A stretch of 64,000 nt of DNA from Enoplolaimus lenunculus (lineage: Eukaryota). The notes beneath the pieces are model-generated. The model did not search any database and was not told where the DNA came from. It saw only the letters and a list, made by a program, of their open reading frames with translations. The stretch lies in assembly GCA_030248215.1 (NCBI GenBank), contig JASANG010000621.1, positions 1 through 64,000 on the forward strand, given 5' to 3'. Positions 5,451 to 56,565 of the stretch are shown here, in pieces; within the stretch, counting starts at the first letter, position 1, and every line of letters starts with the position of its first letter. The position numbers and the translations under genes are program-made.

Positions 5451-5629
5451 TTTTTAGCCTAGGAGCATATTCCACATAGCTAGTAGACAATATTGTCTCG
5501 CATGAAGCTACAATTTATTGGGTTGACGTGGAATGTTTACATCTTTGTCTGATGTTTTCGTAATAAGCATTACAGAACGTAAACATATGTTGCCAGAAAA
5601 CATGCAATATCAGCATACAATCTTTCTAA

Positions 5630-9486: not shown

Positions 9487-10085
9487 TGTACAGATGTCAA
9501 TACACCCAGCGACTCGAAATCTTACTAGATTTAAGTTTTGGGCAGCTGGAATCACATTTCTATGAGGATTTGTGAGTACTCGTGCTGCACTGAAATTTTG
9601 GGGTTACGATCTGGCGGAGAGACCCTGGACAAGCTGGTGTCGGTAGGCACAGCTTTGCTGCGGAAGGCTCTGTGGCGAAACATGCAGCCGTTGAATTTTC
9701 GAAGTCCAAGAGATCGCTGCGGGCCAATGTGCACAAGTTCGATAATCGCTGTAACTCGGAAAGTTGTGCAGACTTCTCGGATCGGTCCGGTATGGGTTGT
9801 GAGCGCTTTTGTAGCCCGGAGAGCTTAAAAGGTGCTCTAAAAGGTCAGTATAGTGTCTCTCCGAACCAATAATCGTGTTTTTGGACGCAAACGGTAGTTT
9901 TGAATTGTCGAAATTTCGCAAACTATCGCTTCGATCTGAATTTTGCCAAATTCAGATGTCGTGATGTAAAACTTTGTAATAGGGTTTTAAATGTGCTGAA
10001 TTTGTTAGAATGCGTCAAAAATTGCCCAATTCCACCCAAATTGCTGTTTTCCGTGTGTATAAAAACCTATTAAAAATTTCGATTA
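9487..10085 (+). mobile_element. Truncated LTR, same family as 59440-61978
   Basis: Starts TGTACAGATGTCA and is collinear with 59440-60042 up to AAATTTCGATTA, where a MITE is inserted. Confidence 0.8.
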
Positions 10086-10578
10086 TGGGTCATCCACGTT
10101 ATACTGTCTACGCTACTGTAAAAAATTGTCCCCACGTACGAGCCCCTAAGTCTGTAATTTTACTGTTTCCAAATCACATGCCCAAATGTCACTCATATCC
10201 TGTTTAGACCCTACTGACAACTCGCACTCTCTATGGGCGACCTATGCTTGTTCACGTTGCCGTCCATACCCAAGCTAAAATGTCAATACGTTATTTAAAG
10301 GGCAACTGTTTTGTCCAGAGTCTGTCAGAAGGGACTCAGCTTATTTCACAACACAAAGTTTGTCGGAAGGAACTTTGCTTTGCAATTATACAGGTCTGTT
10401 CGAAGGAACTCGTATTGTCAGACACTGTGTCCAGACAGTGTCTACATTGTCCTTAGTCCCTTCGAAGGACCTGCTTTCAAAACCCACTATCTATCTACAC
10501 CTTCTGTAAAGTCTTTATAGCTTAAGGACATTGTCGTTTTGTCGCGCCCTTAATACCAGGTGTGTGGACAATTTTTTT
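10086..10578. mobile_element. Harbinger-like MITE copy, cut in its right TIR by the large LTR element
   Basis: Close copy of 5630-6120; the last ~35 bp of the right TIR are replaced by TGTAACACAGCG. Confidence 0.85.
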
Positions 10579-12542
10579 TGTAACACAGCGAACCCAGAAA
10601 TTCAAATCGATCGGCACTCCGGGGAACGACTTCCTAACTAAGTTCGAAGGTTACCAAAGCAAACACAAACGGCTAATTCTCTTACAATAAAAAATGACAC
10701 GGGGCGCCTACTGAATCAAATCAAGTTGATAACCCCACGCCCAAAATAGACTCCGTACACAATATTCAGAAAACTCCGCAGAGCACAAATCGTGCTAACG
10801 CAAAATTCGCTACGTACCACTGACGCCCCAAAATTAAATAAATTTGTAAGATTACGGCACCTTTGCAGGGTAGGCTCATAACAACGCACCAAAAATTATC
10901 CTGTGGCACCCTGATTCCACTTCGATACTAGAAATATTCCGAATTAGCACAAAAATAAACCACTGTTTACCAACAAATTTTCCACTAATTTCCAAAAGAT
11001 ACAATTCACGACGAGAAATTTATGCGAACTAGTGCTCACTCACAGCACCGAACCTGTTAAAACTCTCTAAGTGTCGTTAAAAACAAAATAAGTGATTGAA
11101 TAATTTACGGATTCCTTACGGAAATAACTCGTATGCGCGCGCTCTATTGTATACGCAAGTACAACCGCTAAAATTCTCGAACAGACCTCTTGTCTGACAC
11201 CACAAATTCCCAAAATCTATGCACTTATATTTAACGCAAGTTTCTACAAAACTTCCACTGCACCACGATTTCAGTTAAAATGCTACAACTCTAACTCAAA
11301 AATTATCGCACACAGCGGTTCTTAACTAATCTTAATACTTCCCGTACAAACTAAGTAAACGCCTTTAAGCGCTCAACAAAAATCAAAATCGCGCGTCTCT
11401 ATACGTCGCTAAACAATCGGACAGCATATCACACCCGTACAACTCTGAGCCCCCAAACCCAACCTGTTCTACTCTTATATAGTCGTGAACCGAAAGGTTA
11501 GCTGAATTCTAAGAATCTTATACTACATTTTTAAAATTCCTCCAAATTTCTGAAAAACTAATAAATTTTACTTATCTACAGTTTTTCTTACAAATTTCAA
11601 CTTAAAAATTTTGTTAAAATCTAACAAAAACCTGTTTTGTCTAAAAAATCTAGTTTTTAGATGAAAATTTAAACTTTTAAATCGGTTAAAAAATCTAAAT
11701 TATGTTGTTTTGACCCTAGTAATTTATTTTAAAAACAAAATTGATCTTTCAAATCGCATAAAAAGTAAAAAAATCCACTATTTTGACGAAAATCCGTAAT
11801 TTTCAAAACAAAATTTTAGCTAAAAATTTACAAAAATTTACATAAAAACTAAGTTTTGACCAGAATTTATAAATTTCAAAACAAATTTTATTTTTTAAAT
11901 TAAAATTTTAAAATAACTTCTAATATTTTGTCTTCAAATTAAAATTTGCAATCGTTTTAATTCTAGGAATTAAGCCTACCAAAATTTCCAAAAAGGGGAT
12001 AATTTCAGTACTATTTCACAGATATGGAATTTTCTCTGTTATACTATGCTACAAATTGTATCTCGGAAATAAAACCTTGATTTTAAGGTACAAATTTATT
12101 CCTTTTTATGGTTTCAAACATGATGAACCTGGCCTAAAAATTGCAATTATAGCAAGGACAAAACTCAACTAAAACGACTGCAAACAAAAAACTACAATCT
12201 ATCCGCACCGCATAACTCCTGCGCCTACTGTAAACCTAACCCGTGTATAAAAACTAAAAGCATAAAATCGCGGAGGCAAAAAAATATATATTGCTGGCTG
12301 TATAACCCAACAACAACAACAACAATAAACAACAACAACAACAATAAACAACAACAACAATATTACTACAACAACAACAACAATATTACTACAACAACAA
12401 CAACAATATTACTACATGTATGTATGCACACATACAATTGATACACACTACACAAGCATCACTACAGGGTAATAGGTATAAAAAATTTTAAAATTTCGAA
12501 ACGGGGGTATTCTAAGAATTTCAGCTACCCCCCCACTCTACA
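10579..12542 (-). repeat. 3' LTR (1964 bp)
   Basis: Minus strand reads TGTAGAGTGGGGG...GTGTTACA; 10579-10840 and 11434-11830 align to the other LTR; contains a (CAA)n tract at about 12307-12415. Confidence 0.85.
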
Positions 12543-12560
12543 CTCTCCTCACTTTATTTT
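12543..12560 (-). other. Polypurine tract
   Basis: Minus strand AAAATAAAGTGAGGAGAG directly precedes the TG of the 3' LTR. Confidence 0.8.
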
Positions 12561-14315
12561 GAGCGAGCTCCTGCGAGTTAACTTAAACTACTTCCTAAAA
12601 CAAAAAAAACTACCACAACCCCAAAAATATACTTACCAATCACAGTCGAAGCCTTTGGACCATGATCCGAGGCGCTTCACCAAATATTGGCCTGTCATTC
12701 GATAGCTATCGTCAACCGCTTAACCATTAAAATGTAGAGTTAATCAACTGAACTTCCTAAAATAAGAATTCCTAAAAATACAACAACAATAATATTAAAT
12801 TATAGACAAAATTTAGCTTTGCGTTTAAGAAATTGGTGGCTTCCTTACGGAAAGCAATGTTTCCGAAAAATAACAGAACACTATTTACACACCGAATCCA
12901 AGTATATTTTAACTCACCAGCTGTTCGCTAAAAAATGCCTAAAATACATCGACGATTACACAACATAATATTTAAACTGTACACAAAGAATTAAGTTAGA
13001 TAAGTAAGGAAACACATTGGCTGCCTTACGGCTACAGTAATTTAATTTTCAATAAAGTAGCTAATGACTCAAACTAAATTTTTTTTTTTTTTAGTTTTAA
13101 GTTTCTCTTCCTTTCATTTCTTTTGTTTTGTTTTATTAATTTACAATTGTACATACCCGTATTAAAGCTCACGCTAGGTAAGCCAAACTTACTATGTCTA
13201 TACATTCCAACACTTTTTAAGACTTGTTGGTATAAAAATTACATGATCACCCTGAAATAAAATACAATGTATATGATTAACATTAAAGCGATATATACAG
13301 CATTGGTAATATTTGACAAAATTATGGCTTCCTTGCGGTCATAAATGTTTTTGTAATAACTAAAACATTGCATTTTACATAGCTAATCGACGTGTTATAA
13401 TATGTTCGAAAACAATAACTAAAATACCATCTACAAAAGTACATTAATTACTCTCTGTACATTGAGGCACATGGAGTAAATAATAAGTAAACAAATTGAC
13501 TCCCTTACGGGTTCAAATACCAGATATGAGAAAAGAAAATAAAAAGTATTTTTATTTAGTTTTATTTATTTAATTTTTTTAATCTTACGCCCAAAGATAT
13601 ATATTTTTTTACATATTTTTTTGTTTATTTTTGTTTTGCATATAATTTACAAATATGTACATAGTTGCTTTACACCACGTAATCGAGGATAGATACTTAC
13701 AGTCACTGCAAGTTGATAAGCTTTCTAATTACACTAATCAAAACAATTAATCCAGACACAATAAAAATTCCTCACCATGCTGCCATTGTTCGCCCACATA
13801 TCTTTGCCGGATCACCCATTGACTGTCTCATATAAGCTGCTTTTCCGATGATTGCTAAAACAGGTATTTTAAAATATAAAAACATCTAGTTCATAACATG
13901 AAACATAAGTTAAAGAACGTAGGGCTCCCTTGCGGGCATATGCTACAACTGAACTCACCATTGAAACGAGATAAAAATTTTGCATATCAGTACCAAAATA
14001 GACTCATTGCAGATTTATGCATGAGTGATTAGTAATTGTTCGGTCAACTTAGAAAGCTGTCTGTGCGCACGCCATTGTTTGAAACACTAAAATGGTAGTA
14101 TATGGAAATAGGCAACTCTATGATTTCCTTACATACTCATTAATTGAATTGTATGGCTCCCGTATGGGTAAAACGCCTATAGTATTTAAATGGCTAAGCT
14201 AGTTCAAACATAGGCAAAACCTGTGTTGTTATTTTTTTTATTATAAAACTCAAACTGAAATTATCCTTACAATAACATGGTAACACTGTGATTAGTGACT
14301 AACATTAACGAAGCA

Positions 14316-14903
14316 CTATTCAACATAGCAGTACACAATGTTAAAAACATTCGGTCGCGAAATCAAAGGTGCTCGTGGTATTAGTTTTTTTCTTGAAACA
14401 AGTTTTTTATTACTTAATTCTACCCGCAAACGCATTAGCATATGACCCATTTCATTTCTTCCTGGCCAGCTAGCTGGACATGCGAACTGTGGATCAAATT
14501 TAGTTACTCCAGTTCCCCAAAATGAATCATATTTATTAGTTTCTGCTATAAGGCAAGTTCCTGTATCAACCAATGCATCTCTAAGCGTAGGGTGTTGACA
14601 AAACTTCGCATAAACCGCTTTTTCCATAACACGGAGCTTGTCTTTCTTCCACCCTGCAATCAATCGCCTACCTACAAAAGTTCTTAACATTAATTTTTGT
14701 TCAATGGCCATCAGTCGTTTTGCTTGTTTAGGATCACTAGTCTTTAATATTTCTTTAGCTAACTGCAACCTACCAAGTTCTTTGGCTTTAGTGTATTGGT
14801 AGAAATGCTCCACTGATGCATAACCTTGGCCATCAATTACAATCGGAACTAAATATAAGTTTGAAAACACATGAGATGACCCGATAAACGGAACTATAAT
14901 CAT
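14316..14903 (-). CDS. NADAR/YbiA-family hydrolase (195 aa from first ATG; frame open to 15002)
   Basis: Family motifs FSNLY..PIVIDG..YASVEHFYQ..KA, W....LRVMEKAVYAKFCQHPTLR..L..TG, IAE...D.FWGTG and W.GRN.MG.MLM.LR. Confidence 0.9.
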   Translation of the reverse strand: MIIVPFIGSSHVFSNLYLVPIVIDGQGYASVEHFYQYTKAKELGRLQLAKEILKTSDPKQAKRLMAIEQKLMLRTFVGRRLIAGWKKDKLRVMEKAVYAKFCQHPTLRDALVDTGTCLIAETNKYDSFWGTGVTKFDPQFACPASWPGRNEMGHMLMRLRVELSNKKLVSRKKLIPRAPLISRPNVFNIVYCYVE

Positions 14904-15161
14904 GTTATTTGTGCTTAATCTACGAGGAAAGGTATAAACTAACCTAATGGAATATATTGAGAATATGGCCAACCAGCGTTGATGGTAAATCCGCACAGCC
15001 AAATCCTACCGCAACCTCCAGTGAAATTTATTGCAGTTAATGGAATTAAGCAACAGTTGAGATTAGAGCAGCTGTTGAAATGTCCAGAATATAGGCACGC
15101 GAAGCGTAATTATTATGCGATGACTAATGTTATGTTAGGGATATATAGGCAGTAATATAGT

Positions 15162-18100
15162 TTATCGCGATGCTGGTAATGGATTAGCTAAATTAATCCG
15201 CATATGTATGAACCGTTTTACTGCCGGAGCCATTGGCTCAATCCAGGCGTTCGCTTCGCTACACTCTCTAATAGACTCACGGACCAGAGGCTGATCAAGG
15301 AAGTGCAACGTGTTGCATACAAAGAAATTAGCTTTTCTGGCCCGCGTAATAGTAACGTTCACTCGCCGATACTCAGATAAGAAGCCTAGCGGGTGTGGCT
15401 GACCCGCTGCGTCTAATGATGGGAGTGACCGGACGAGAGAAATGATCATATAATTTCTCTCGTCCCCTTGCCAGACATTAGCACATCCGATTTTTATGTC
15501 TGGATATTCCCTACCTACCATCTGTTTGAGCAGTTCCGTCTGAATTGCATATGCTGCATTGATTCCAATATCCGCCGGTGGCACCCCACCCTGGTGTACC
15601 AGCAGCTCAACCAACTTAGTTACCGCCATCAGTTCATGTCTATTGTACAGACTCACACCATGGTACGCCTGTTGCCCTTCGATATGCCAGATCACAATGG
15701 GTTGCCCAAAGGGGATTTGGCGAACGCTAGGCCAGTCGGTGTGTTGCAACCACTGGTCAGCGGAACAAAGCAAGGGCGTTTCAGTATACACCACGCGATT
15801 TGGCGGTTCCAGTAGTGCTGGCACTGAACGGTAATTTTCACGTAGTTGTATTACTCGGCAGTCAGTACTGTTTTTCGCTAATGTCAACAATAACTCCATC
15901 CCTGATTCTTCCGCGCCGAATTGCCACAAAACCCTGTTGGTGACATATGCCGGTAGCTGGTGCACGTCACCCATCAAGATAACTTGACCGGCCACTGCTA
16001 ACGGTAGAACCACCGACATGCGCGGTAAGTCCACTGAGGCGGCCTCATCGATTGCTATTACGTCGAAAACGCCATGACCGTAATTGGGCTCGTTTTTACA
16101 ATGATGAAATGCGTCTAAATTGTTCACAATGTCCATAATAGCCATATCCATGGTGCACACAATGATTTTATGATATAACAAAGCACCAGATGACTTAAGT
16201 TCCCGCTGCCCGTCTTGTTCGGTGGTGTTAGGATCGCTTCGCGTCGCGCAGTACGGCTGTAACACTGGATCAATGAGATTCATGTCGTAGTTGCGCCGTA
16301 GGTAGCGCACGACGACTCCGGGTGGTATGACCTCGTTGTTACTAAGGGACTGTAAATTTTGAACCAGTTTTAGCGCGAGAATATTTGCAGCAGCGTTGGT
16401 GCTTGTGACACACAAAAAACGCTTCTCTGGATTGCTCCATGACAATGCGGAAAGAATGCGGGCAAGGGTGCTGGTTTTTCCTGTTCCGGGAGGTGCGCGA
16501 CAAAGACTAACTTTTACACCCTGAATCAGTGCGGTAAAAACTTGTGACTGGTTATAATTTAACCAGTGTTGTACATACTCGTCAGTCGTTCTGGTCGTTC
16601 GCCACTGTATGGGTTTCTGATTCAGTTCATTCCTAAGGCCACAAAAAAGCAAACCATACCACGACCTCCAGGCGGCAAAGAAACGTTGTCGAAATTGTAT
16701 ACGGCGGCTGTTCGCCAGGACTTGAGCATCAGCGGTCGGTTCGACAGACGCTGATGACGTGGATGATTGCTCCGAAGTGTCAGGCATTTCAATATCCCCT
16801 TCCGGTTGCTGCGGTAAACTCGGAAGCTGTGGCTGCTCGATCACACAGTTTAATAGTGAAATTAAATATTCCAGTGCAGGACCCATCATTGGAACCAATT
16901 GAACGTCTCGTAAGTTTCGAAGGTTGGGACCATCATAGAATATGTTTCGCGTTCCTTTGTTCAGTTTGATGACGACCATGGTGTGATTGATGTTAATAGG
17001 CTGTGAACCGACTACTGCGACGACTATCTTGACTTTCCAGTCCGATTGTACTAAATTAGCCAGGCGCGTGAGTCGAAGGTTGCGAAATTCGTTGGTGTCC
17101 ACTGTAACCGTCAAGAACATGGAATCGGGTGGCGATTTCTCAAACTCGTATAAATCGGAGCTTCCGCTATTCGCAATGGTTTCGAAATCACTAGCTACAG
17201 TTGGTGATACCGTAGTCACCGTCGCCTTTGGAGGGTCGTCTTCCTCGTACTGAACCTGGCCTAATAATTCTGCAAGTACGCGGTGAGGCAAATTGTTAAA
17301 GGTTACAGGTCGAGTCGGGTCAAGGATTGCCAGGATATCGTTCTTATTAGGTGTACTAGGCAGAGGCTCTGGTGCATCTGCCGCCACCAGCCGGTGATAA
17401 ACCGGGCGTTCGACCAATGTCTGAGCTGGTGCTATGGCGAACTGATACCAGATTTCAAAGTATGGTGATAGGTGCGGTATAGTTATCTTGGTTGGTTTCA
17501 AACAACGATTCACAGTTGCAGGGTCTTTTCGCTCGTTCGGTACGCCAAGAGCAGATTGTGGAACCAGCGACAGGTGCCCAGCCTGCTGTTCTGCACTCGA
17601 TTTACGAATCAGCGCTTGCAAGGCCTCATCAATTTTCTCATCGAGATATAAGTCGCGGAAATCCCATTGGATTATCGTCGTGAACGGGGCAAATTTGTTT
17701 ACTCGGCGACGTGATTGATACTGAACCCACATTTGTAGCTCGTAGTAGTGTAACCCAAGCCGACCCTCACCGGAAATGGTCACGTGAAATGTGGGTGATT
17801 GGTTACGTGCACGGGGCATTACGGGACTAAATACAACGCCGTCCGGAACGATACAGTTTGGGGTACGTGGTATAAACAGTTGAAAGGGCTGCCGATCCGT
17901 AGTGGTAGCGTCGAATAAAAGAGTGGATACCTGGTCAAAGTCCGACAGTCCTTGGATGACTGGCAATGCTGGAGCTTCAGGCGCCCAAGGTGCGCCGAGA
18001 TGAAAACTGGCCTGTCCATTGTCTGCTCCAACACATTCAATCAACACCTGAGCACCATACATCGAGTTTTTAAGCTCAGTGATGCTGCCGATCCTGCGTC

Positions 18101-18542
18101 TTTCAATCCACTTCTGGTGTTCAACCAATGCTACCCCCACCGGACTAAATCGAAATTTCTGCACTTCAATGCTGACCATATGAAACGGAGTCCACAAATG
18201 ACTGGGGCCAAATATAACCGTTCGGCATACAGGACATAAAGTCATTGGACTCTGGGGCAAATTCTTAGGCCAAGCTACGTACTGGAGCTGCTCTGCTAAT
18301 CGCTCCCAAAGCGCATGATCTAGTGGACTGGAATCGTCTGTTAAACCCAATTCGCATAGAGCTGGGCGCAGAGCATCAATAGGTAAATAGGCCGAAAGAC
18401 AGTTCAGTGCTGCGGATTGGCTGTAGGGGTGAAGCGTCTCGCGAATTAAAGATGTAGCAACGAGATTGGACAAAGCCGGAGGAATGCCAAGTCGAGCACT
18501 AAACTCCACGACGGGGTTAGGGCTACCAGCAGCAGAATTCAT
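15162..18542 (-). CDS. Upf1-like superfamily 1B helicase (1126 aa, intronless)
   Basis: Walker A APPGTGKT, Ia TSTNAAANIL, Walker B IDEAA, III GDVHQLP, LRENYRS, YNRHE, V WQGDERNYMIISLVRS, VI RRVNVTITRAR. Confidence 0.92.
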   Translation of the reverse strand: MNSAAGSPNPVVEFSARLGIPPALSNLVATSLIRETLHPYSQSAALNCLSAYLPIDALRPALCELGLTDDSSPLDHALWERLAEQLQYVAWPKNLPQSPMTLCPVCRTVIFGPSHLWTPFHMVSIEVQKFRFSPVGVALVEHQKWIERRRIGSITELKNSMYGAQVLIECVGADNGQASFHLGAPWAPEAPALPVIQGLSDFDQVSTLLFDATTTDRQPFQLFIPRTPNCIVPDGVVFSPVMPRARNQSPTFHVTISGEGRLGLHYYELQMWVQYQSRRRVNKFAPFTTIIQWDFRDLYLDEKIDEALQALIRKSSAEQQAGHLSLVPQSALGVPNERKDPATVNRCLKPTKITIPHLSPYFEIWYQFAIAPAQTLVERPVYHRLVAADAPEPLPSTPNKNDILAILDPTRPVTFNNLPHRVLAELLGQVQYEEDDPPKATVTTVSPTVASDFETIANSGSSDLYEFEKSPPDSMFLTVTVDTNEFRNLRLTRLANLVQSDWKVKIVVAVVGSQPININHTMVVIKLNKGTRNIFYDGPNLRNLRDVQLVPMMGPALEYLISLLNCVIEQPQLPSLPQQPEGDIEMPDTSEQSSTSSASVEPTADAQVLANSRRIQFRQRFFAAWRSWYGLLFCGLRNELNQKPIQWRTTRTTDEYVQHWLNYNQSQVFTALIQGVKVSLCRAPPGTGKTSTLARILSALSWSNPEKRFLCVTSTNAAANILALKLVQNLQSLSNNEVIPPGVVVRYLRRNYDMNLIDPVLQPYCATRSDPNTTEQDGQRELKSSGALLYHKIIVCTMDMAIMDIVNNLDAFHHCKNEPNYGHGVFDVIAIDEAASVDLPRMSVVLPLAVAGQVILMGDVHQLPAYVTNRVLWQFGAEESGMELLLTLAKNSTDCRVIQLRENYRSVPALLEPPNRVVYTETPLLCSADQWLQHTDWPSVRQIPFGQPIVIWHIEGQQAYHGVSLYNRHELMAVTKLVELLVHQGGVPPADIGINAAYAIQTELLKQMVGREYPDIKIGCANVWQGDERNYMIISLVRSLPSLDAAGQPHPLGFLSEYRRVNVTITRARKANFFVCNTLHFLDQPLVRESIRECSEANAWIEPMAPAVKRFIHMRINLANPLPASR

Positions 18543-18940
18543 AATTAAAGAGCGTTGATAATTACGGCGCCTTTACAGGCAAAATGTCGCTGCTAAACTC
18601 GTAATGTTACTGTTGTTGATATATGATGACTATGGGTCCCTTACGGGTAAAACATTGCTGCAGCCAGCAGTACATAACTTTGACAGTTGAAGGTCGATGA
18701 TAATAAAACGTAACAACTATGGATCCCTTACGGGTACACAGCGCTGCCACAAGCAACCATATTAATAGCAGTTGAATGCTGATATTATTGCTACTACTTT
18801 TAATACGTAATAATAATAATAATAATGTAATTTGACAGTTACGGGTCCCTTACGGGTTATAACTACTTTGTTTATTTCAAACGACACGACATCGTGCGTA
18901 GTCCCGATCGCCAATGACATTAATGCTATGGAAATTGTGA

Positions 18941-21900
18941 TTACAACGGAAAATGGCTAGAGCCACGAGCGCGTAAATTATACCGATGCATTGCCCGAGG
19001 TACGGGCGCAGTGGTTTCCTGGTGCTCCTGTTCCCTTGCATCAATGTCACTAGATGCCGTTTCCATAGCAGAGTCGTTACCGTTTGATACATACTGCAAT
19101 TCATGATTGCTGGATAAACCGGGATTTTTATCTACTTCTAATCCGTTCTCAATATCTACGTCCATATTTGCCTTCGTACTGCAGGTACCGGTTTCATCTT
19201 GACGTAATTCAGGTACATAAGGACCATAAAAAGGTTTAATGCGTTCTACATGCACCCTTTTATGTTGCTCCTTAGGGTTAGTTATGGATTGCAAAACAAC
19301 ATCAGGAAATACTAACTCTATGATTTCATAAAGACCGTGCCATTCTTGTCCTAATTTCTTAGTTTTTCCTTTCTTTTGAAAAGGCACGTGCAATAGGACC
19401 TTTTGTCCCTCAAAGAAATGCGGTTCCGCGGCACGACGATCATGATAAAATTTCATGTGATCTTGGGCTGACTGTATGTTTTGCTTAGCCAACGCCCATG
19501 CTGCTTTAAGGGTAAGTTGCAAATCCCTAAAGCAATCTTCTTCATCTAAGTAATTGACGTTACTAATTGGCAATGCTACATCAATTGGCAGCCGTGGTTG
19601 TCTCCCATAAACTAATTCAAAGGGGCTAAGCCGTGTAGATTCGTTAACACTTACTCTATAAGCAAAACAAGCAAACGGAACGAACTCATCCCAAGTGCGT
19701 TGAGCACTGTCTATGTATTGAGAGACCATGTTCATTAAGGTACGATTTATTCGTTCCACCACCCCATTGGTTTGGGGTCGATAGGGTGTTGTAAAAACTT
19801 TTCGGGTTCCTGTAATTTTACAAATTTGGTCAACTAATTCGCTTCGAAAATTAGGTGCATTGTCACTAATTAATTCACATGGGGCTGAATGGCGACAAAC
19901 TACCTCAGTCATAAACAATTTTGCAATAGTAGTGGCTTTTTGATCAGGAGTGCAAATGGCCTCGGGATATTTTGTAAAACGATCAATAAAAATTACCACG
20001 TATTTGTTCCCATTATAGGTTTGGGGTAATGGGCCAAGAACATCCACATGATATGAAAAATTGGGCTGCGTAGTAGGAATTGGATTCAATGGTGCCTTAG
20101 GCCTGGCCGGTCCAGTTTTACGCTTACTGCACTCGATGCAAGCCTTGCACCAATTTACTACGTCACGGTACATCCCATCCCAAAAATACTTGGGTAATAA
20201 CTTTTGATATGTCTTGGCAACACCAAGGTGTTGTCCACCAACAACATCATCATGATGTGCTGATAGTAATTCTTCACGCATAGAGAAAGGAACAACTAAT
20301 TGTTCCCAGAGTACACCGGGTCGATATTTGGGTATAGGATAATGATGGTACAAAACTCCATTTTTTACTACATAACGTGGCTGGATTAATGCAAAGTGCG
20401 AAGCCAGCTTTGCATCATCCGGGTTTTTACCAAATTCAATATATTCCTTTAAAGCCTTAATCTCTGGGTCCTGCTCTTGTTTTTCCGCAAACGGAATAGT
20501 TGATGGTAGGTCCTGCTTGTTGGAAGTTTCACTTAAGGCAACTGCGTATGCAAACTTAATATCTTCCTCATCAGAACCTTCTTCTAATTTAGAAATTTCA
20601 GTACGAGAAAGGGCATCAACATGCGACATATTTTTACCCGCTCGGTGTTCAACATTAAAATCGTATTCACTTAAAGCAAGTGCCCAACGCTGTAATCTTC
20701 CCGATGCATTCTTATTAGTTAATAACCATCGAAGGGCTGAGTGATCAGTTATTATAGTCACATGCTGTCCGTATATATAATTACGAAAATACTTCATAAA
20801 ATAAACAACAGCTAATGCTTCCAATTCAGTAGTGGTGTAATTCCGTTCAGCTTTTTGAAGCAAACGACTACCATAAGCAATAGGATGGGCTCTGCCCTCG
20901 TTATCTTTTTGAGATAACACAGCTCCAATTGCCTTACCGCTAGCATCTGTTTCCAAAATGTATGGCTTGCTGGGATCGGCTATTTGCAAAATTGGAGGAG
21001 ACATAAGTTTAGATTTTAATAATTGAAATGCTTTTTCAGCCTCTGAATTCCATTTAAAAGGTTTCAAGGTGCTAGTAAGTTGACTAAGTGGCTTAGCAAT
21101 TGCTGCGAAGTCTTTTATAAAACGACGGTAATAACTGCAAAACCCCAAGAAACCTCGCACACCAGTAATATCATTCGGTATAGGGTAATGTTCAACTGCT
21201 TCAATCTTTTTCGGATCTGGCTTCAAGCCTTCAGCAGAAATAATATGACCTAAATATGGAACTTCTTTTCTTAAAAAGTTACATTTAGCTGGTTTAACTT
21301 TAAGACCGACATCCCTTAATCGTTCAAATACAAGACGCAAGCGTCTAATGTGCTCGTCAAAAGTTTCAGAAAACACGCATATATCGTCTATATAGATAAG
21401 GCAGACACGCTCAACTAATCCACGAAGGGTGGCCTCCAGTGTACGTTGAAAAGTAGCAGGAGCGTTGCATAAACCAAAAGGCATTTTAGTAAATTGATAC
21501 AAACCAGCTGGGGTAATAAAAGCAGTTTTCTCAATTGAATCAGAAGCCATAGGGACTTGCCAATATCCTGATATTAAATCCATAACACTAAAATACTTTG
21601 CTTTCCCTATACACTCCAGTAAATCATTAATATTCGGAAGTGGAAAACAATCCTTCTTAGTCACGGCATTTAATTTTCGGTAATCAATACAAATGCGCAA
21701 AGACTTGCCGTCTTTCTTTTTAAGTACAACCATTGGACTAGCCCAGGGGCTTGTTGAGGGCTCAATGATTCCGTAACGTAGCATGTTGCCTAACTCTGTA
21801 TCCACCTTATCCTTAGATTGAAAAGGCACCCGATAAGGTCTCTGCTTAATAGGCACTGCATCCCCAGTGTCAATTGAATGTTCAACTACTGATATAGTTC

Positions 21901-24900
21901 CACAATCGTAATCATGCTTTGCGAAAACATCGTTAAATTCCAAAAATAATTCAATCAACTTTGACTTTTCGATTCCCGAAATTTCAGACTCCTCTAATTT
22001 TAGATCAGCTATCAAATCAAAATGTGGTTGACAACTAACAGATTGTAAGTTCAATACAGTAGGTAAAACACAAGTATCTAAGGGTTCTATTCGACCAACA
22101 GTCATGCCCTTATACAGCCGAACGGGACAATTCGACATATTAAGTAATCGCAAAGGAATAACTAAGTTATCCGCATCACTTAATATTAATTCAACTGTGT
22201 TTAAACCGTATAACTGAATAAGCTTATAATTTGGTTCAAAATACACATCACCCTCATGTCCAAACCCTTTTACTTCGCAGGGTATAAGCACCTCTGATCT
22301 TGAAGGAATAAGTGTAGTATCTGGCAAGAGTACATTTTGGCTTGACCGATATCCCATCTTTAACTGCATTTTTCCAAGCTTAACAATGCCTGTTGCGTAA
22401 TCTAGACTTATAGTGCCAAATTGTCGTAGTAAATCAACCCCTAGTATTGCTGGGTGGGCGCATTCATCTGATACATACACATGAAAAGGTAGGGATTTGG
22501 AACCTATTTCAATTTGTACTTTAATAGCACCTTTCAGGGGTAATGCATGACCAGTAACTCCAACAGCGGTGGTGGCGGGTACTGGAACCAGACTAGTTTC
22601 GGGTTTATTCAATTTTCGAAAAGTTTCTGATGACATAACAGTAATATTACTTCCAGTATCGATAACTGCTCGTACAGGTATATCATTCATGTAAATTTCA
22701 ATGTCCGAAAGAGAGGGTCCTAAAGTCAAAACAGTCTCCGCTACGGTATGACTCGGAGAAAGGCTGGTTGAAAACTGTAATGCACGTTTCCGTTTGCTAC
22801 ATAAAAATTTTGATGGTCCAATAACAGTTGAATGTATAGGCAATTCCAACGTTTCAGTTTCAGGGGAAGTACATATTACTTCCACAGGGGTTGACCTTTC
22901 TTGTCCATAAGATTTACAACAGCAACGCAAACACTTAAACCATTTGCCATACCAGGCGTATATAACACATATACCCACTACCAACATGACCAACCCGACA
23001 GCTATATAACTTAATAAATCGCTATAGGGTAAATTGAAATCAGCACTAGGTGTAAAAGACAAAAGCTCCCTTTTTAATCGGGTACGAGTCAAATTAGACT
23101 GATACTCTACGTTTTCTAAGCTTCCCCACACTGGCGGTGGCACTACGTCTTGATGTAGAGTGAAATTGTATTGAACATCAGGTGAAATTTCAAAGTTAAG
23201 AGCGGGTCTAGAGGTCGACATAAGCACGCGGTCTCCAACAATCAGCATACTAAAATTTTCAAAAGGCATAAACATAACCCCGCGCTCCGGTACACGCATA
23301 GTCTCAATTACAGATGAGGAGACCAATTTTTTAGTCCTTGTGAGCTTGACAGTTGGTTCCGAAGTACGCAAAAGTAATCCAACCCGAGTGGTTTCAATAT
23401 GGGTGCCTGCAAACATTTGTTTAACTTCCATTGCACATGTATTATTATGCACTACGGCTTGGCGCATTCCTCTAAAACAGCTGTCCGCTTCGCTAGTTGG
23501 CAAAGCTTCCATCCCACAGTACCATAAACCAATACGCTTGTCACAAGCTTCGGACTTTACTTCGTGATAATACCCCTTACTAAACATACGAGCATAAGTT
23601 ACAAACTTAGGCAAAGCTAATCGGGCAATTATTTGTTTTGAAGGAATGTTAAAACCGACGTTTATAACCTTCATAAGCGGCAACACGTTCTTAATTCGTA
23701 TTAGGGGGATTTCCAAAATTATTCCAAATTTTGTTTCTCGAATATCTAGTAGCACGGGATAAACCTTAACAAAGTGGTAGAATAATCCGGGATCATGTAT
23801 GTATACTGAATTTCGCAATGTTGGCTCCTGTTTAACAAGCTTTTTAATTTGAGACGCAGACAGAATTGCGACAGATAAGCGACCGCTATCACTAGCAAGG
23901 ACTAATGCATCCACTACTTTACGTACTCCATTTATAAACTGATTTGATTGAGAAATAAAATGCGAAATCGTTACCGATTCTGTTAAACTGCAGGTCATTG
24001 TAATTCGGGTTTGTTCTACATATTTCTGTATCTCATGGGTTATTGCGAAAACTCGCTGTTGGTTAATATTCAGTTTATGAATTGCCTCCGAATTTTCAGT
24101 GATTTCGTCATTCAAAAGTCGAACACTTTTCTGGAGGGCCAAAATTTTTGGTTCCAAATGTGACAACTTAATACTATTGGCAATTCCAAGTCCGGTGCCC
24201 ATGATCGAAGTCAAACCAGTCAAAAGCAGGGGGACAAAGCGGCGATTACGACCCGAAGTAACAAAACTACAAGTGAATGGCTTTTTCTCACACATGTCTC
24301 TCATTAGCTCTTCATAAAATGCAGAGTCGATGGTATCCTCATAGTTATTAGCCAAATCCGAAAGTGCCTGTTTCTTAATCATGCTAAATAAACGCTGTTG
24401 ACCAGTGCAATTACAAAAAGTAGGTGTACCACCTTGAAAAACAAGAGGAGAGCATGGCTTAATTCGGTCTTGTCCAGCATGCACAACTACAGGCAGGTAA
24501 ATGGATTCACTTGCGGTTAACACTAGACCCTCAGGTATAAGCCCAACCCCAACAGAAGGAAAAATTTTTGGTTGTAATTGATGTAATGTTTGCGTTAAAC
24601 TAGAATCAACACGACCCGTTAAACTAAATATGAGTGCAATCACACAACAAAGTAAAATATTCCATGGCTTAAGTGGAGGAACTTTGCACCTACTTGATCG
24701 TCTAGGACAGTTACTTCGAACCGGTGGTTTATCTGTAACAGCTTCATTCAAATTTAAAGAAGCAGGTTCAGTTTGGGTAAATTTAGCAACATGATGTGTA
24801 GCCTGGATGGCTCCGACAAAATTGGGAAACGATTTTTCCACTAGGAGGGCATTTTGACTACGCAAAGTAGCAAGCTCTTTCTTAAGACGATCAATTTCTT

Positions 24901-26104
24901 GCTTAGAATCGCATCCAGAATTAACAGCTTTTGCATCATTAGATACTAGAGTAGTAGCTACAACGGCTTTGTTAGGCGGGACTGGTGATAAAGTTGGTAA
25001 ATTTGGGATATTAGGCCGCGCAGGGCGGTTAAAGTTCGATGCCGGAAAATTTGGCCGATAAGTCGACCGTCCAAAATTATTTTGAGTTTGGAGTCTGTTA
25101 TTCCGAGGAAAATTTCCGTTACGTAACAAACAGGCCATTGCTAAATGTCCAACTTTCCCACAATTATAACACTTCGGACCGCGAGGGGAAAAATTTTGAG
25201 CCAAATCGGGACGTGGATTTTGAAAGTTTCGATTTGGTGGGCCCCTATTTGGTGGACCTCGGTATCCGTTAGAAGGTTGGGGTCTGTTCCGTGGCTCAGG
25301 ATGCCTAAAGGTGTTTCTGCGCATGTTCTGTATAAGCTGCTTTTGATTATTTGCCAGCAGCTGGACTCCCCGAGCGAGCGTATGCAAAGTCTGCTTTGGA
25401 GCAGGCACGGACATGTTCAAAGGATCAACGCCTGTCGGTTTTCCACAGAGTAAAGACTGCATATCTAGGCGCTGAGCTAAGTCCTCCGCTTCCTTAAGCG
25501 TTTTTGGCATATCCCGAAAAACTTCTAGCTTAGCTTCAGTTGGAAGTAAACCGCCGAAAAATCTATGTATAACTCTACGGTCAAACGCGGCGTTGTCCAA
25601 ATTAGGATAAACACTTTTACAAGCATTCTTAATACCCTTTAAATAAGCTGCAACACTTTCACCAGGCAGCTGATGTCGCTGCTCAAGCGCTGCTTCATGG
25701 TACATAGTCCACTCAGTGGTTGTCAATTGGGCCTCTAAAGCCGGTACTAAATCAGTAAAACGGCGCTTAGATTGTTCAGGTACTCGCTCATATGCATCCT
25801 TAGCACGATCTTTTAAATAGGCAGGCAACACCTTAAGTTTCATATCATCATCAATTAAACGGGCATTACAATAAGTATTAAAAGTATCAATCCAACTTTT
25901 AAAATCAGACCCGGTTAAATCTCCCCGAAAAAATGTAATTGATAAATCAGGTTCAGTACCCAATCTTACACGTTGGGATATTAAATCAAAATCGTCACTT
26001 AATCCTCTTAAGCCATCATCTACACGATTAGCAAGATCTTTCACAACAGCATCTAGCTGAGCTATGTTCCTAGTTATATTTTCCATGTTTGGGTTTTGTA
26101 ACAC
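18941..26104 (-). CDS. Gag-Env-Pol polyprotein (capsid, CCHC knuckle, class I fusion glycoprotein, protease, RT, RNase H, integrase)
   Basis: In order: CYNCGKVGHLAMAC; hydrophobic WNILLCCVIALIFSL; RNRR/FVPLLLTGL; TM YIAVGLVMLVVGICVIYAW; VIDTGS; YIDD; ETDASG; HHCC zinc motif and DDE core (DVLGPL, ISDNAP, GVVER). No stop or frameshift. First ATG is at 26086 and the frame is open further upstream. Confidence 0.95.
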   Translation of the reverse strand: MLQNPNMENITRNIAQLDAVVKDLANRVDDGLRGLSDDFDLISQRVRLGTEPDLSITFFRGDLTGSDFKSWIDTFNTYCNARLIDDDMKLKVLPAYLKDRAKDAYERVPEQSKRRFTDLVPALEAQLTTTEWTMYHEAALEQRHQLPGESVAAYLKGIKNACKSVYPNLDNAAFDRRVIHRFFGGLLPTEAKLEVFRDMPKTLKEAEDLAQRLDMQSLLCGKPTGVDPLNMSVPAPKQTLHTLARGVQLLANNQKQLIQNMRRNTFRHPEPRNRPQPSNGYRGPPNRGPPNRNFQNPRPDLAQNFSPRGPKCYNCGKVGHLAMACLLRNGNFPRNNRLQTQNNFGRSTYRPNFPASNFNRPARPNIPNLPTLSPVPPNKAVVATTLVSNDAKAVNSGCDSKQEIDRLKKELATLRSQNALLVEKSFPNFVGAIQATHHVAKFTQTEPASLNLNEAVTDKPPVRSNCPRRSSRCKVPPLKPWNILLCCVIALIFSLTGRVDSSLTQTLHQLQPKIFPSVGVGLIPEGLVLTASESIYLPVVVHAGQDRIKPCSPLVFQGGTPTFCNCTGQQRLFSMIKKQALSDLANNYEDTIDSAFYEELMRDMCEKKPFTCSFVTSGRNRRFVPLLLTGLTSIMGTGLGIANSIKLSHLEPKILALQKSVRLLNDEITENSEAIHKLNINQQRVFAITHEIQKYVEQTRITMTCSLTESVTISHFISQSNQFINGVRKVVDALVLASDSGRLSVAILSASQIKKLVKQEPTLRNSVYIHDPGLFYHFVKVYPVLLDIRETKFGIILEIPLIRIKNVLPLMKVINVGFNIPSKQIIARLALPKFVTYARMFSKGYYHEVKSEACDKRIGLWYCGMEALPTSEADSCFRGMRQAVVHNNTCAMEVKQMFAGTHIETTRVGLLLRTSEPTVKLTRTKKLVSSSVIETMRVPERGVMFMPFENFSMLIVGDRVLMSTSRPALNFEISPDVQYNFTLHQDVVPPPVWGSLENVEYQSNLTRTRLKRELLSFTPSADFNLPYSDLLSYIAVGLVMLVVGICVIYAWYGKWFKCLRCCCKSYGQERSTPVEVICTSPETETLELPIHSTVIGPSKFLCSKRKRALQFSTSLSPSHTVAETVLTLGPSLSDIEIYMNDIPVRAVIDTGSNITVMSSETFRKLNKPETSLVPVPATTAVGVTGHALPLKGAIKVQIEIGSKSLPFHVYVSDECAHPAILGVDLLRQFGTISLDYATGIVKLGKMQLKMGYRSSQNVLLPDTTLIPSRSEVLIPCEVKGFGHEGDVYFEPNYKLIQLYGLNTVELILSDADNLVIPLRLLNMSNCPVRLYKGMTVGRIEPLDTCVLPTVLNLQSVSCQPHFDLIADLKLEESEISGIEKSKLIELFLEFNDVFAKHDYDCGTISVVEHSIDTGDAVPIKQRPYRVPFQSKDKVDTELGNMLRYGIIEPSTSPWASPMVVLKKKDGKSLRICIDYRKLNAVTKKDCFPLPNINDLLECIGKAKYFSVMDLISGYWQVPMASDSIEKTAFITPAGLYQFTKMPFGLCNAPATFQRTLEATLRGLVERVCLIYIDDICVFSETFDEHIRRLRLVFERLRDVGLKVKPAKCNFLRKEVPYLGHIISAEGLKPDPKKIEAVEHYPIPNDITGVRGFLGFCSYYRRFIKDFAAIAKPLSQLTSTLKPFKWNSEAEKAFQLLKSKLMSPPILQIADPSKPYILETDASGKAIGAVLSQKDNEGRAHPIAYGSRLLQKAERNYTTTELEALAVVYFMKYFRNYIYGQHVTIITDHSALRWLLTNKNASGRLQRWALALSEYDFNVEHRAGKNMSHVDALSRTEISKLEEGSDEEDIKFAYAVALSETSNKQDLPSTIPFAEKQEQDPEIKALKEYIEFGKNPDDAKLASHFALIQPRYVVKNGVLYHHYPIPKYRPGVLWEQLVVPFSMREELLSAHHDDVVGGQHLGVAKTYQKLLPKYFWDGMYRDVVNWCKACIECSKRKTGPARPKAPLNPIPTTQPNFSYHVDVLGPLPQTYNGNKYVVIFIDRFTKYPEAICTPDQKATTIAKLFMTEVVCRHSAPCELISDNAPNFRSELVDQICKITGTRKVFTTPYRPQTNGVVERINRTLMNMVSQYIDSAQRTWDEFVPFACFAYRVSVNESTRLSPFELVYGRQPRLPIDVALPISNVNYLDEEDCFRDLQLTLKAAWALAKQNIQSAQDHMKFYHDRRAAEPHFFEGQKVLLHVPFQKKGKTKKLGQEWHGLYEIIELVFPDVVLQSITNPKEQHKRVHVERIKPFYGPYVPELRQDETGTCSTKANMDVDIENGLEVDKNPGLSSNHELQYVSNGNDSAMETASSDIDAREQEHQETTAPVPRAMHRYNLRARGSSHFPL

Positions 26105-26296
26105 AAGGTGGGAGTTACTATCGAGGGGTTCAGAAAATTCAGAATCGTCGTCGCTGGATTCTAAGACACCAGTACTGCGTAATTTGTATCGAGCCGTTAT
26201 TTTTACAAAACAAACTGAACGTTCTTTAAAAGGGTAAAGGTTAGCACTCGGACAAAATTTTCGACCAAAGCTCGTTTACCGGTTAAGAAAACTGGT

Positions 26297-26314
26297 ATCT
26301 CGGTGGGACCTCCA
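26297..26314 (-). other. Primer binding site, tRNA-Gln
   Basis: TGGAGGTCCCACCGAGAT lies 2 nt from the 5' LTR end and is complementary to the metazoan tRNA-Gln 3' end (ATCTCGGTGGGACCT-CCA). Confidence 0.88.
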
Positions 26315-26316
26315 AA

Positions 26317-28323
26317 TGTAACACAGCGAACCCAGAAATTCAAATCGATCGGCACTCTGGGGAACGACTTCCTAACTAAGTTCGACGGTTACCAAAGCAA
26401 ACACAAACGGCTAATTCTCTTACAATAAAAATGACACGGTACGCCTACTGAATCAAATCAAGTTGATCTTCCCAAGCCCAAAATTGACTCCGTACACAAT
26501 TCAGAAAACTCCGTATAGCACAGATCGTGCTGACTCAAAATCCACTACGTACTACTGACGCCCCAAAATAAAATAAGAAATGCAAAATTATGGTCCCTTT
26601 ACAGGTGCAATTCCAAATAAATTGCTAAATAATGACTTCTCGGAAATAGTATAGTTCTACTCCAAACACAACGACTCCCCTTAAGTAATCAAGTCAGCCT
26701 AATATCAGAATTTTAGGCCAGGAAATTAAAAAAGAATCAAATAGTTCAACACCACCAATATACACTTCTCGATAATTACCAGTTTCAACTTAGGGTCCAA
26801 AAATATGCGAAGTACTCTTTGCACGAAAAAAATCAAAATTGCGTAACTCTTGCAAAAAAATAAATCAAGTAATTTAATAACTACGGCTTCCTTACGGAGC
26901 AAAGTCGTAGCTGCGCGCAGTTTGCTATAAATCACCAAGGAAGTACCTAAATTTGCTACAATTGTCCCACCAGCAATTTTTTTCAACAAAATTTAACTTA
27001 AGTAGGCAGAAAATTTCTCGCCTACTACGGGCTCCCAAATACTCAAAATATCCTCTACGCGTACTATTCACCAAGTATCCCACGACACAACTTAACGCGC
27101 AACCGTAAATTTTATATAAACACAGGCACCCTAAGTTCAAAACAATTCGCATAAATCGCCGGTACTAATTCTCCGATAAGAAATTGGGCAGCGGTTCGCT
27201 CCCGTACAACTCTGAGCCCCCGAACCCAACCTGTTCTGCGCTTATATATTCGTAAACCGAAAGGTTAATTGAGTTCTAGGAATTTTATGATAAAATTTTA
27301 AATTCTTTCAAAAATGTTGAAAAACCACTAAATTTAACTTAAAAAAGATTTTCTTAAAATTTTCTAACTCAAAATTTTGTTAAAATCGAACAAAAAGCTG
27401 TTTTGTCTTAAAAATTCAGTTTTTAGAAGAAAATTTAAACTTTTAAAATAGCTCAAAAATCTAAAGTATGTTGTTTTGACAGAAGTAATTTATTTTAAAA
27501 ACAAATTTGATCATTCAAATCGCATAAAAAGTTGAAAAAAGTACTATTTTGACGAAAATCCGTAATTTTCAAAACAAAATTTTAGTTAAAAATTTTAAAG
27601 AGTTCTTAGAATCCTAATGTTGTGGCTTCGAATGGTTGTTTCAAGGTTCCTACAATTCTCAGAACTGTCATTCTTTAACTTCTTAAAAAGGGGCTACTCG
27701 ACCACCATTCTGGACTTAGATTACAATTTTATACTACAAAATATTAAATAACATGTCCTAGACTTCTCGCAGTAGTGCATATCCATCAGGAAGCTGATAT
27801 TGATATCCGACTATAGACTAAGCCTGATTTACCCAATACCCCGCTTATTTTTACGCAACTACCACATAATCCGACAAATTCAATTTCTCACATATGTGAG
27901 CATTCATACAATTCGATATTCTACATGAAAGCTAAAGTAATGAGCAATAATTACACTACTTGCCTACACAACACTGCACTTGCAAGTGTTCCAAAGTGCA
28001 CTGGAATAAATATACACACAAACAGATGTATGAACAATTGTTTAAGTCCTTTCAGTAGGTCCAATAGCAATATAACAGCACAAATCTTCCCAATAGCACC
28101 AACCTCAACTGTACACAATAATTAAAACACACGCACATATACAAATGTATAATACATGAACACACTAATTGTATATGTATACACAATATGTATACACATA
28201 TATATTGCACCATACACATCAATAAAATGGGATAAACTTAAAAAATTTCCTCCGACGTTACAAAAAGGGGGTTTTAAAGTCACACCAGGGTATCCTAAAA
28301 ATTCTAAAATCCCCCACGCTACA
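26317..28323 (-). repeat. 5' LTR (2007 bp)
   Basis: Minus strand reads TGTAGCGTGGGGG...GTGTTACA; abuts the PBS; aligns in blocks to 10579-12542. Confidence 0.85.
27200..27250 (-). promoter_or_regulatory. Putative LTR core promoter (TATA box and initiator region)
   Basis: TATATAAG at 27241-27248, mirrored at 11474-11481, followed ~30 nt downstream by GCTCAGAGTTGTACGGG conserved in both LTRs. Confidence 0.6.

Positions 28324-33421: not shown

Positions 33422-33454
<33 letters not shown>

Positions 33455-56135: not shown

Positions 56136-56565
<430 letters not shown>

What the first reader, a model, noticed from the sequence alone, without database searches (positions are those of the whole stretch)
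10579..28323. Complex 17.7-kb Gypsy-type endogenous virus: Gag-Env-Pol plus Upf1-like helicase plus NADAR inside one pair of LTRs
Seen: LTR, PBS(Gln), 2387-aa polyprotein, 1126-aa SF1 helicase, ~195-aa NADAR, 1.8 kb non-coding, PPT, LTR; all ORFs are intact, intronless and co-oriented. Known: typical Metaviridae encode only gag, pol and sometimes a 3' env, while SF1B helicases and NADAR domains are found in large RNA viruses (nidoviruses) and in cellular RNA-surveillance and ADP-ribosylation conflict systems. Inference: this is an enveloped retroelement lineage with an accessory counter-defence module. I do not know of a described element with this gene set.
Basis: partly seen in the sequence, partly recalled or inferred. 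Interest (0 to 1): 0.95.

Follow-up and report, generated by a model that had tools for sequence, protein, structure and literature searches.

The report
Enveloped retroelement carrying helicase and NADAR
A retrovirus-like jumping gene, likely of a nematode, carries a predicted paramyxovirus-type fusion protein inside its main polyprotein plus two extra intact genes (an RNA helicase and an enzyme of a type that removes ADP-ribose) that likely help it escape host defences; the copy seen here is likely a patchwork of two insertions.

Summary
The anatomy is real, on the minus strand: LTR, tRNA-Gln PBS, a 2381-aa Gag-Env-Pol ORF, a 1126-aa SF1B helicase, a 195-aa NADAR, PPT, LTR. Contigs from three DNA runs bridge pol to the spacer and helicase to NADAR, and show diverged and frameshifted helicase copies, so the cargo belongs to a repeated family.

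Corrections:
- The LTRs are not twins (64% overall), there is no TSD, and the flanks come from different sites. This copy is a recombinant or a mis-join.
- The helicase forms its own clade; its closest cellular hits are MOV10/Armitage/SDE3-type rather than UPF1.

Additions:
- The Env looks class I, F-type (language-model match plus anatomy; the fold failed). All 36 published nematode entries carry gB-type Env.
- A distant Gypsy Pol is fused to a possibly related helicase.
- A covarying GYAA hairpin occurs 14 times, only in non-coding parts.

NADAR in Gypsy and viral helicases in insect LTR elements have separate precedents; my searches found no paper on this combination. Counter-defence is the likeliest role but is untested.

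The parts
26317..28323 (-). 5' LTR, 2007 nt, TG...CA; TATA-like site near 27248
26297..26314 (-). Primer-binding site; its first 12 nt are the exact complement of the tRNA-Gln end listed for several Caenorhabditis elements
   Evidence: supplement rows
18941..26086 (-). Single Gag-Env-PR-RT-RH-IN ORF, 2381 aa
24737..26086 (-). Gag with CCHC knuckle (aa 305-316); homologous to the Gag of P0016 and P0014
22952..24658 (-). Env: internal signal-like stretch aa 477-495, RNRR furin-type site aa 613-616, hydrophobic fusion-peptide-like stretch, heptad repeat, 10 ectodomain Cys, transmembrane helix from aa 1024; predicted class I F type
   Evidence: fold failed
18941..22700 (-). Pol: protease, RT (YIDD), RNase H, integrase
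18543..18940 (-). Pol-helicase spacer with AATAAA (18876) and 4 hairpin copies (18840-18856, 18718-18734, 18631-18647, 18563-18579)
15162..18542 (-). Intronless SF1B helicase, 1126 aa; N-terminal C2H2-like motif (aa 103-121); Walker A/B and downstream motifs intact
14904..15161 (-). Helicase-NADAR spacer: AATAAA at 15032 and a pyrimidine-rich AG acceptor-like site shortly before the NADAR ATG
14316..14903 (-). Stand-alone YbiA-type NADAR, 195 aa; last-strand glutamate aligned with that of E. coli YbiA
12543..14315 (-). 1.8-kb 3' non-coding region with 6 hairpin copies (starts 14168, 13936, 13511, 13339, 13032, 12851); no stop-free frame over 54 codons
12543..12560 (-). Polypurine tract abutting the 3' LTR
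10579..12542 (-). 3' LTR, 1964 nt, TG...CA; homologous to the 5' LTR only in blocks; 2 hairpin copies (11122, 10869) matching 26898 and 26605 in the 5' LTR
10083..10577 (.). MITE-like element cut by the 3' LTR inside its right inverted repeat (intact copy at 5626-6159)

Best explanation
This is a repeated Ty3/gypsy retroelement, likely of a nematode, whose single Gag-Env-Pol protein holds a predicted class I (F-type) fusion protein and which carries two extra genes, an SF1B helicase and a NADAR, that likely protect its RNA and cDNA from host defences. Shown: gene order, domains, intact catalytic motifs, linkage of pol to the spacer and of helicase to NADAR in run contigs, and a covarying hairpin confined to non-coding parts. 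Inferred steps: (1) the internal signal stretch and the transmembrane helix would thread Env into the ER, leaving Gag and Pol in the cytosol, and furin would prime Env; (2) helicase and NADAR would be made from separately processed mRNAs, by trans- or cis-splicing with alternative poly(A) sites; (3) the helicase would remodel or shield the element's RNP in competition with the host MOV10/ERI-6/7 silencing helicase; (4) NADAR would strip ADP-ribose from element nucleic acid; (5) the hairpins would be protein-binding marks on element RNA. The copy in this window is likely a recombinant or mis-join of two insertions, with the join likely in env. Odds: cargo belongs to the element about 0.9; Env is F-type about 0.85; counter-defence role about 0.45.
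For: Linkage: run X1 has a contig over 13709-15356 (NADAR into helicase, 1 difference) and one over 18624-19629 (spacer into pol, 1 difference); 30 of 30 bins are covered in 3 of 3 runs. Diverged helicase copies exist (99 differences in 684 nt with no gap; 79 in 499 nt) and so do 1-nt-deleted ones, as expected of a transposon family. The hairpin ties both LTRs to the spacer and the 3' region: 13 copies at score 8 or more, all sense, 0 in 11.1 kb of ORFs, shuffles at most 1; 9 matches against 0.14 expected; 41 of 42 cells paired with 7 two-sided changes, 0 of 500 shuffles. P0168 is a Gypsy RT-RH-IN polyprotein ending in an AAA_11/12 helicase that groups with this helicase clade at 94/85. Env: the best Atlas clusters are paramyxovirus-type F0 at 0.96, 220 of 256 features, with furin site, fusion peptide and heptads. 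Helicase: 37 of 49 next hits carry the MOV-10 barrel; the top viral fold match is annotated SDE3. ERI-6/7/MOV10 silences nematode LTR elements (PMC7084138, abstract). NADARs reverse guanosine ADP-ribosylation (PMC11125620, passages) and are proposed counter-defence factors in animal RNA viruses (PMC9503650, passages).
Against: No TSD, discordant LTRs and unmatched flanks. The runs are 2 samples of 1 study and may include the source of the assembly. Depth over pol and gag is about 1.5 to 6 times that over the helicase (not a copy number), so many relatives may lack the cargo or carry it more than 15% diverged. F-type Env has no Pfam or PDB sequence hit and the Atlas recognition value was below its threshold (1517 against 2300). 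The P0168 grouping is unstarred, joins long branches, and its RT is only 35% identical. The helicase lies outside crown MOV10 (100/98), and solved-structure searches, which listed no MOV10 entry, rank IGHMBP2, UPF1 and DNA2 first. The hairpin definition was made from these copies, and a lower stem is not supported (P 0.35). There are no functional data.
Confidence: 0.6

Rival explanations
1. Same element, but the cargo serves replication rather than defence: the helicase unwinds the long, structured genomic RNA for export, packaging or reverse transcription (possibly docking on the hairpins), and NADAR helps process element RNA.
For: Hairpins lie in the leader, after pol and in the 3' region. 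The helicase is Pol-fused in P0168. RNA processing is the role suggested for the Ectocarpus Gypsy NADAR (PMC12477816, passages). [quoted passage not shown]
Against: Close Pol relatives P0014 and P0016 have no helicase in their polyproteins, and most Gypsy elements replicate without one. The NADAR keeps the YbiA-type glutamate.
Confidence: 0.25
2. The 17.7-kb unit is an assembly or amplification artefact that places unrelated pieces, or host genes, between two different LTRs.
For: Discordant LTRs, no TSD, mismatched flanks. An adapter-like loose end in run X3 suggests an amplified library (adapter identity recalled). 17 of the 19 listed sites where all X1 contigs differ from the window lie in 23832-25717.
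Against: This explains the mosaic 5' end, not the cargo. Pol-spacer and helicase-NADAR are bridged in high-depth contigs; a PPT abuts the 3' LTR; the same hairpin occurs in both LTRs and the interior; host genes in the window are split by introns while the helicase is not.
Confidence: 0.08
3. The element, or this locus, is host-domesticated and the helicase and NADAR act for the host, for example in antiviral defence.
For: Intact ORFs between diverged LTRs; proposed for insect retrotransposon SF1 helicases (PMC6338049, main text).
Against: Near-identical high-depth contigs plus decayed copies suggest a recently mobile family; the recombinant flanks explain the LTR divergence.
Confidence: 0.07

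Closest known systems
GAG-ENV-POL Ty3/gypsy 'errantiviruses' of Nematoda, Bryozoa and Platyhelminthes (Chary and Hayashi, PMC13524379; Sacco et al. 2022, known to me only as cited there)
   Same: Env placed between Gag and Pol; tRNA-Gln PBS identical over 12 nt to several Caenorhabditis entries. Close Pol relatives P0014 and P0016 have the same layout and the same C-terminal YNLRxR motif.
   Different: All 36 nematode entries are gB-type, and the text says these phyla carry only that type; here Env looks F-type and has no similarity to the Env of P0014 or P0016. LTRs are about 2 kb against about 140-470 nt where listed. No helicase or NADAR is mentioned (0 occurrences of 'helicase'), though that survey did not look for further ORFs.
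Ectocarpus Gypsy lineage with YbiA-family NADAR in Pol; oyster Tx1 ORF1 NADAR (PMC12477816)
   Same: YbiA-type NADAR carried by a retroelement.
   Different: There it is fused to Pol or ORF1; here it is a stand-alone ORF behind a helicase in an env-bearing animal element.
Viral SF1 helicase (SF1H) domains in insect TRAS/Jockey LINEs and fused to dipteran and hymenopteran LTR-element proteins (PMC6338049)
   Same: SF1 helicase as retroelement cargo; weak silencing-suppressor activity reported.
   Different: Those derive from plus-strand RNA viruses and are fused domains; this is a 1126-aa stand-alone AAA_11/AAA_12 protein with no Viral_helicase1 hit, nearest to MOV10-type cellular helicases.
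MOV10/Armitage/SDE3/ERI-6/7 helicases
   Same: SF1B core; they dominate the best cellular hits.
   Different: Outside the MOV10 clade; no MOV-10 Pfam domains; own N-terminal C2H2-like motif shared with P0134 and P0208.
Bdelloid rotifer LTR elements with enzymatic ORF3s (PMC5408684, abstract)
   Same: Extra enzyme ORFs downstream of pol; paramyxovirus-like env in one lineage.
   Different: Different enzymes (GDSL esterase, DEDDy exonuclease), and env and enzymes are alternative ORF3 types there.

Membership tests
Metaviridae (Ty3/gypsy) | Pol order PR-RT-RH-IN | tested here: met
Metaviridae (Ty3/gypsy) | Gag with nucleocapsid knuckle; PBS and PPT delimiting the internal region | tested here: met
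   definition in PMC7879559
Metaviridae (Ty3/gypsy) | Two homologous LTRs, identical at insertion, with a target-site duplication | tested here: inconclusive
   Homologous in blocks only, no TSD, flanks from different sites; this reflects this copy, not necessarily the family
Genus Errantivirus (ICTV) | env downstream of integrase | tested here: not met
   env lies between gag and protease
GAG-ENV-POL errantiviruses (PMC13524379) | Env between Gag and Pol | tested here: met
GAG-ENV-POL errantiviruses (PMC13524379) | HSV/gB-type Env | tested here: not met
   Atlas top hits F0, none gB; furin site, fusion peptide and heptad anatomy; no match to the class III-like Env of P0014 or P0016
GAG-ENV-POL errantiviruses (PMC13524379) | Pol falls in a published nematode clade | not testable with these tools
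   The published Pol sequences are not usable as session sequences; my RT-RH tree placed the query with P0016, P0018 and P0054 at 94, unstarred
Class I F-type fusion proteins | Signal peptide, furin site, fusion peptide, heptad repeat, transmembrane anchor | tested here: met
   feature list from PMC13524379 passages and recall
Class I F-type fusion proteins | F fold | tested here: inconclusive
   Single-sequence model pLDDT 33.7; fold search meaningless
SF1B (UPF1-like) helicases | AAA_11 plus AAA_12 core with intact motifs and SF1B fold | tested here: met
MOV10/Armitage/SDE3 | Nests in the MOV10 clade and carries MOV-10 Pfam domains | tested here: not met
   separate clade, adjacent only if the root lies among the other SF1B rows
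YbiA-family NADAR | NADAR fold with glutamate in the last strand | tested here: met
   Pfam E 3e-32; Glu aligned with E. coli YbiA; criterion from PMC11125620
YbiA-family NADAR | ADP-ribosyl hydrolase activity | not testable with these tools
   needs an enzyme assay
Known Rfam RNA families (hairpin motif) | Match to a covariance model | tested here: not met
   three chance miRNA matches (E above 1), none on the motif; a resemblance to SRP helix 8 is recalled only

The most novel reading that the evidence does not exclude
A 'complex' enveloped metavirus lineage of nematodes that swapped its class III envelope for a paramyxovirus-like class I fusogen, captured a relative of the host's own anti-retroelement helicase (MOV10/ERI-6/7) and an ADP-ribose eraser, and expresses them as an operon-like accessory module controlled by a repeated GNRA hairpin: the invertebrate counterpart of lentiviral accessory genes.
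Probability: 0.35. Interest if true: 0.9.

Novelty: new variant of a known kind. Interest (0 to 1): 0.74.

Why it matters
It would extend Gag-Env-Pol elements to a second fusogen class in the same slot, which points to envelope exchange. It would give a compact, testable case of a retroelement carrying two candidate counter-defence enzymes, one related to the helicase family that silences LTR elements in nematodes. A retroelement NADAR under selection would also argue that invertebrate hosts ADP-ribosylate retroelement nucleic acid. The covarying hairpin is a new cis-element candidate for how downstream ORFs of a long LTR element are expressed or its RNA is packaged.

Tried and rejected
No genome is held, so copies, TSDs and dN/dS could not be read from an assembly. 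No RNA holder was listed; this is no evidence on expression. The Env fold from a single sequence failed; Pfam and PDB sequence searches gave no fusogen hit. The Atlas search of the helicase N-terminal 640 aa gave nothing above 0.77, and most of that part stayed low-confidence in the model.

Scans for loci of the helicase family: viral contigs gave 7 generic distant helicases and none with a narrower alignment; metagenomes gave none of 231 candidates. Pol in viral contigs gave none. The Pol scan of metagenomes kept 80 of 577 loci; 0 of 80 held the helicase, NADAR, Env or hairpin, but they are distant (30-50%) and mostly short, so this does not test the family. The NADAR search gave one hit, 39% identical, origin unresolved.

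Whole-spacer folding was not above shuffles (z 0.15), and an extended lower stem of the hairpin was rejected. An old single insertion with eroded LTRs was rejected because the flanks do not match. Synonymous against non-synonymous counts used only the 40 listed of 1211 sites (22 against 18; helicase 2 against 2), too few and too selected to use. Sacco et al. 2022 is not held. The search returned irrelevant papers. Repbase, Dfam and GyDB cannot be searched here. No complex prediction was run.
Full report
1. Observation. The element lies on the minus strand. Three uninterrupted, co-oriented ORFs are present: 26086-18941 (2381 aa), 18542-15162 (1126 aa) and 14903-14316 (195 aa). Pfam gives protease, RT, RNase H and integrase in Gypsy order, AAA_11/AAA_12 for the second ORF and NADAR (E 3e-32) for the third; Gag has a CCHC knuckle. 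A PBS follows the 5' LTR and a purine tract precedes the 3' LTR. The first 12 nt of the PBS are the exact complement of the tRNA-Gln end listed for several Caenorhabditis elements in the supplement of PMC13524379. With tandem TTAGGC repeats in the window (nematode telomere unit, recalled) this suggests a nematode host, which is not established.

2. The LTRs are not a twin pair. They match at 1360 of 2116 columns (64%; five shuffles 50-52%; the 3' LTR was entered one base short), with blocks of 84% over 423 nt and 90% over 292 nt. There is no TSD. The 3' LTR interrupts a MITE-like element inside its right inverted repeat; an intact copy lies at 5626-6159, and the expected 37-bp remainder is absent from the 1.2 kb beyond the 5' LTR. 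In run X1, 19 of the 40 listed variant sites differ from the window in all contigs, and 17 of these lie in 23832-25717 (40 of 1211 rows shown). Reverse transcription makes identical LTRs (established knowledge), so this copy is likely an ectopic recombinant of two insertions or a mis-join, with the frame kept through env.

3. The cargo belongs to the element. Three DNA runs (2 samples, 1 study, possibly including the source) hold 0.79-0.95 of the sampled words. Laid on 13500-26400, all 30 bins are covered in each run. One contig spans 13709-15356 (NADAR into helicase) and one 18624-19629 (spacer into pol), each with 1 difference. Diverged helicase copies (99 differences in 684 nt, no gap) and copies with 1-nt deletions occur, as do internally deleted derivatives.

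4. A repeated hairpin ties the parts together. A 3-bp stem with a GYAA loop and a CCRTA-like tail occurs 14 times: 2 in each LTR, 4 in the pol-helicase spacer and 6 in the 3' region. Thirteen score 8 or more, all sense, none in the ORFs; shuffles reach at most 1, and 2 matches lie in the 46 kb outside. A fixed pattern gives 9 matches against 0.14 expected. 41 of 42 cells pair, 7 with changes on both sides, 0 of 500 shuffles. The definition came from these copies, only 3 pairs are involved, and a lower stem is unsupported (P 0.35). Rfam has no match. An RNA mark is likelier than a DNA site because the stem covaries while the loop and strand are fixed (inference).

5. Env. Between Gag and protease lie a signal-like stretch (aa 477-495), RNRR at 613-616 followed by a hydrophobic peptide, a heptad repeat (72% hydrophobic at a/d), 10 cysteines and a transmembrane helix from aa 1024. 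The best Atlas clusters are paramyxovirus-type F0 (0.96, 220 of 256 features), though the recognition value was below threshold. Pfam and PDB sequence searches found no fusogen and the single-sequence fold failed. Two of the three best RT-RH matches, P0016 and P0014 (54-56%), have the same layout. Their Env regions are homologous to each other (E 1e-28) but not to this one, and P0014's matches a Monjiviricetes fusion family below cut-off. PMC13524379 (abstract, first part of section 5, section 14, passages, all 36 nematode rows of supplementary file 1, 15 rows of file 2) reports only gB-type Env for Gag-Env-Pol elements.

6. Helicase. All core motifs are intact. The core folds confidently and matches DNA2, IGHMBP2 and UPF1; nidoviral helicases rank below these in the PDB search and below an SDE3-annotated protein in the viral one. 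Among 1.84 billion representatives two unnamed proteins stand out, P0133 and P0134 (E 3e-67 and 1e-50). In a 40-row tree (40 of 156 cores) the query groups with them at 99/91, with P0208 at 100/97 and with P0168 at 94/85, outside a MOV10-like clade (100/98); several of these branches are long. 37 of 49 next hits checked carry the MOV-10 barrel. The query, P0134 and P0208 share an N-terminal C2H2-like motif. P0168 is a Gypsy polyprotein with the helicase fused after integrase; its RT is only 35% identical, so such cargo recurs in a distant lineage. The contexts of P0133, P0134 and P0208 are unknown.

7. NADAR. It aligns with E. coli YbiA (E 6e-12) and keeps the last-strand glutamate that marks the YbiA family (PMC11125620, passages).

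8. Mechanism. Shown: anatomy, linkage, motifs. Inferred: Env is threaded into the ER from within the polyprotein. The downstream ORFs use processed mRNAs, since AATAAA follows each stop within 65-130 nt and an acceptor-like AG precedes NADAR (weak, as AATAAA occurs 9 times in 2429 nt, and no clear acceptor was found before the helicase). The helicase likely competes with or shields against the host MOV10/ERI-6/7 pathway, which silences nematode LTR elements (PMC7084138, abstract). NADAR likely removes ADP-ribose, as proposed for animal RNA viruses including nematode nidoviruses (PMC9503650, passages). A replication role is the main rival.

9. Novelty. Precedents exist for each part separately: Gag-Env-Pol order (PMC13524379), NADAR in Gypsy (PMC12477816, passages), viral SF1 helicases in insect LTR elements (PMC6338049, main text) and enzyme ORF3s (PMC5408684, abstract). 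ICTV criteria were read in full (PMC7879559). Searches found no paper on this combination, on F-type Env in this position, or on a MOV10-related helicase as cargo. Sacco et al. 2022 and the repeat databases could not be seen, and five other supplementary files of PMC13524379 were not read. Earlier AI notes record similar cargo in other genomes; they are leads only. Verdict: a real, new variant of a known kind; interest 0.74.

Noticed in passing
window 5626-6159 and 10083-10577: 534-bp MITE-like element with 54-bp inverted repeats; the second copy is cut by the 3' LTR.
   Followed up: yes
window 30400-36450 (+): Exon-like ORF pieces of a host gene resembling an ectonucleotide pyrophosphatase (label recalled, from translations).
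   Followed up: no
window 52704-53177 (+): Cysteine-rich exon resembling a TIL protease-inhibitor domain (label recalled).
   Followed up: no
window 58348-58453; 6685-9402; 56138-56561: 30-nt tandem with TTAGGC-like units; a 2.7-kb 19/20-nt satellite; a 424-nt poly-C tract (possible artefact).
   Followed up: partly
window 20229-25592 and 24878-25523: Run contigs skip 5362 nt and 644 nt: likely internally deleted, non-autonomous derivatives of the family.
   Followed up: no
window 13885-13700 (-): A 37-codon frame followed, after a stop, by a short hydrophobic stretch, with splice-like signals nearby; possibly a small membrane-protein remnant.
   Followed up: no
L015 9155-10971: A metagenomic Gypsy element followed directly by two co-oriented deoxynucleoside-kinase ORFs.
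   Followed up: partly
L030 5650-7785: A Gypsy pol followed directly by a 712-aa ORF with a TatD DNase domain.
   Followed up: partly
protein P0014 (not a locus): Gag-Env-Pol relative with a 4038-aa frame that includes a PHAX RNA-binding domain after integrase.
   Followed up: partly
protein P0168 (not a locus): Gypsy Pol fused to a complete AAA_11/AAA_12 helicase.
   Followed up: partly
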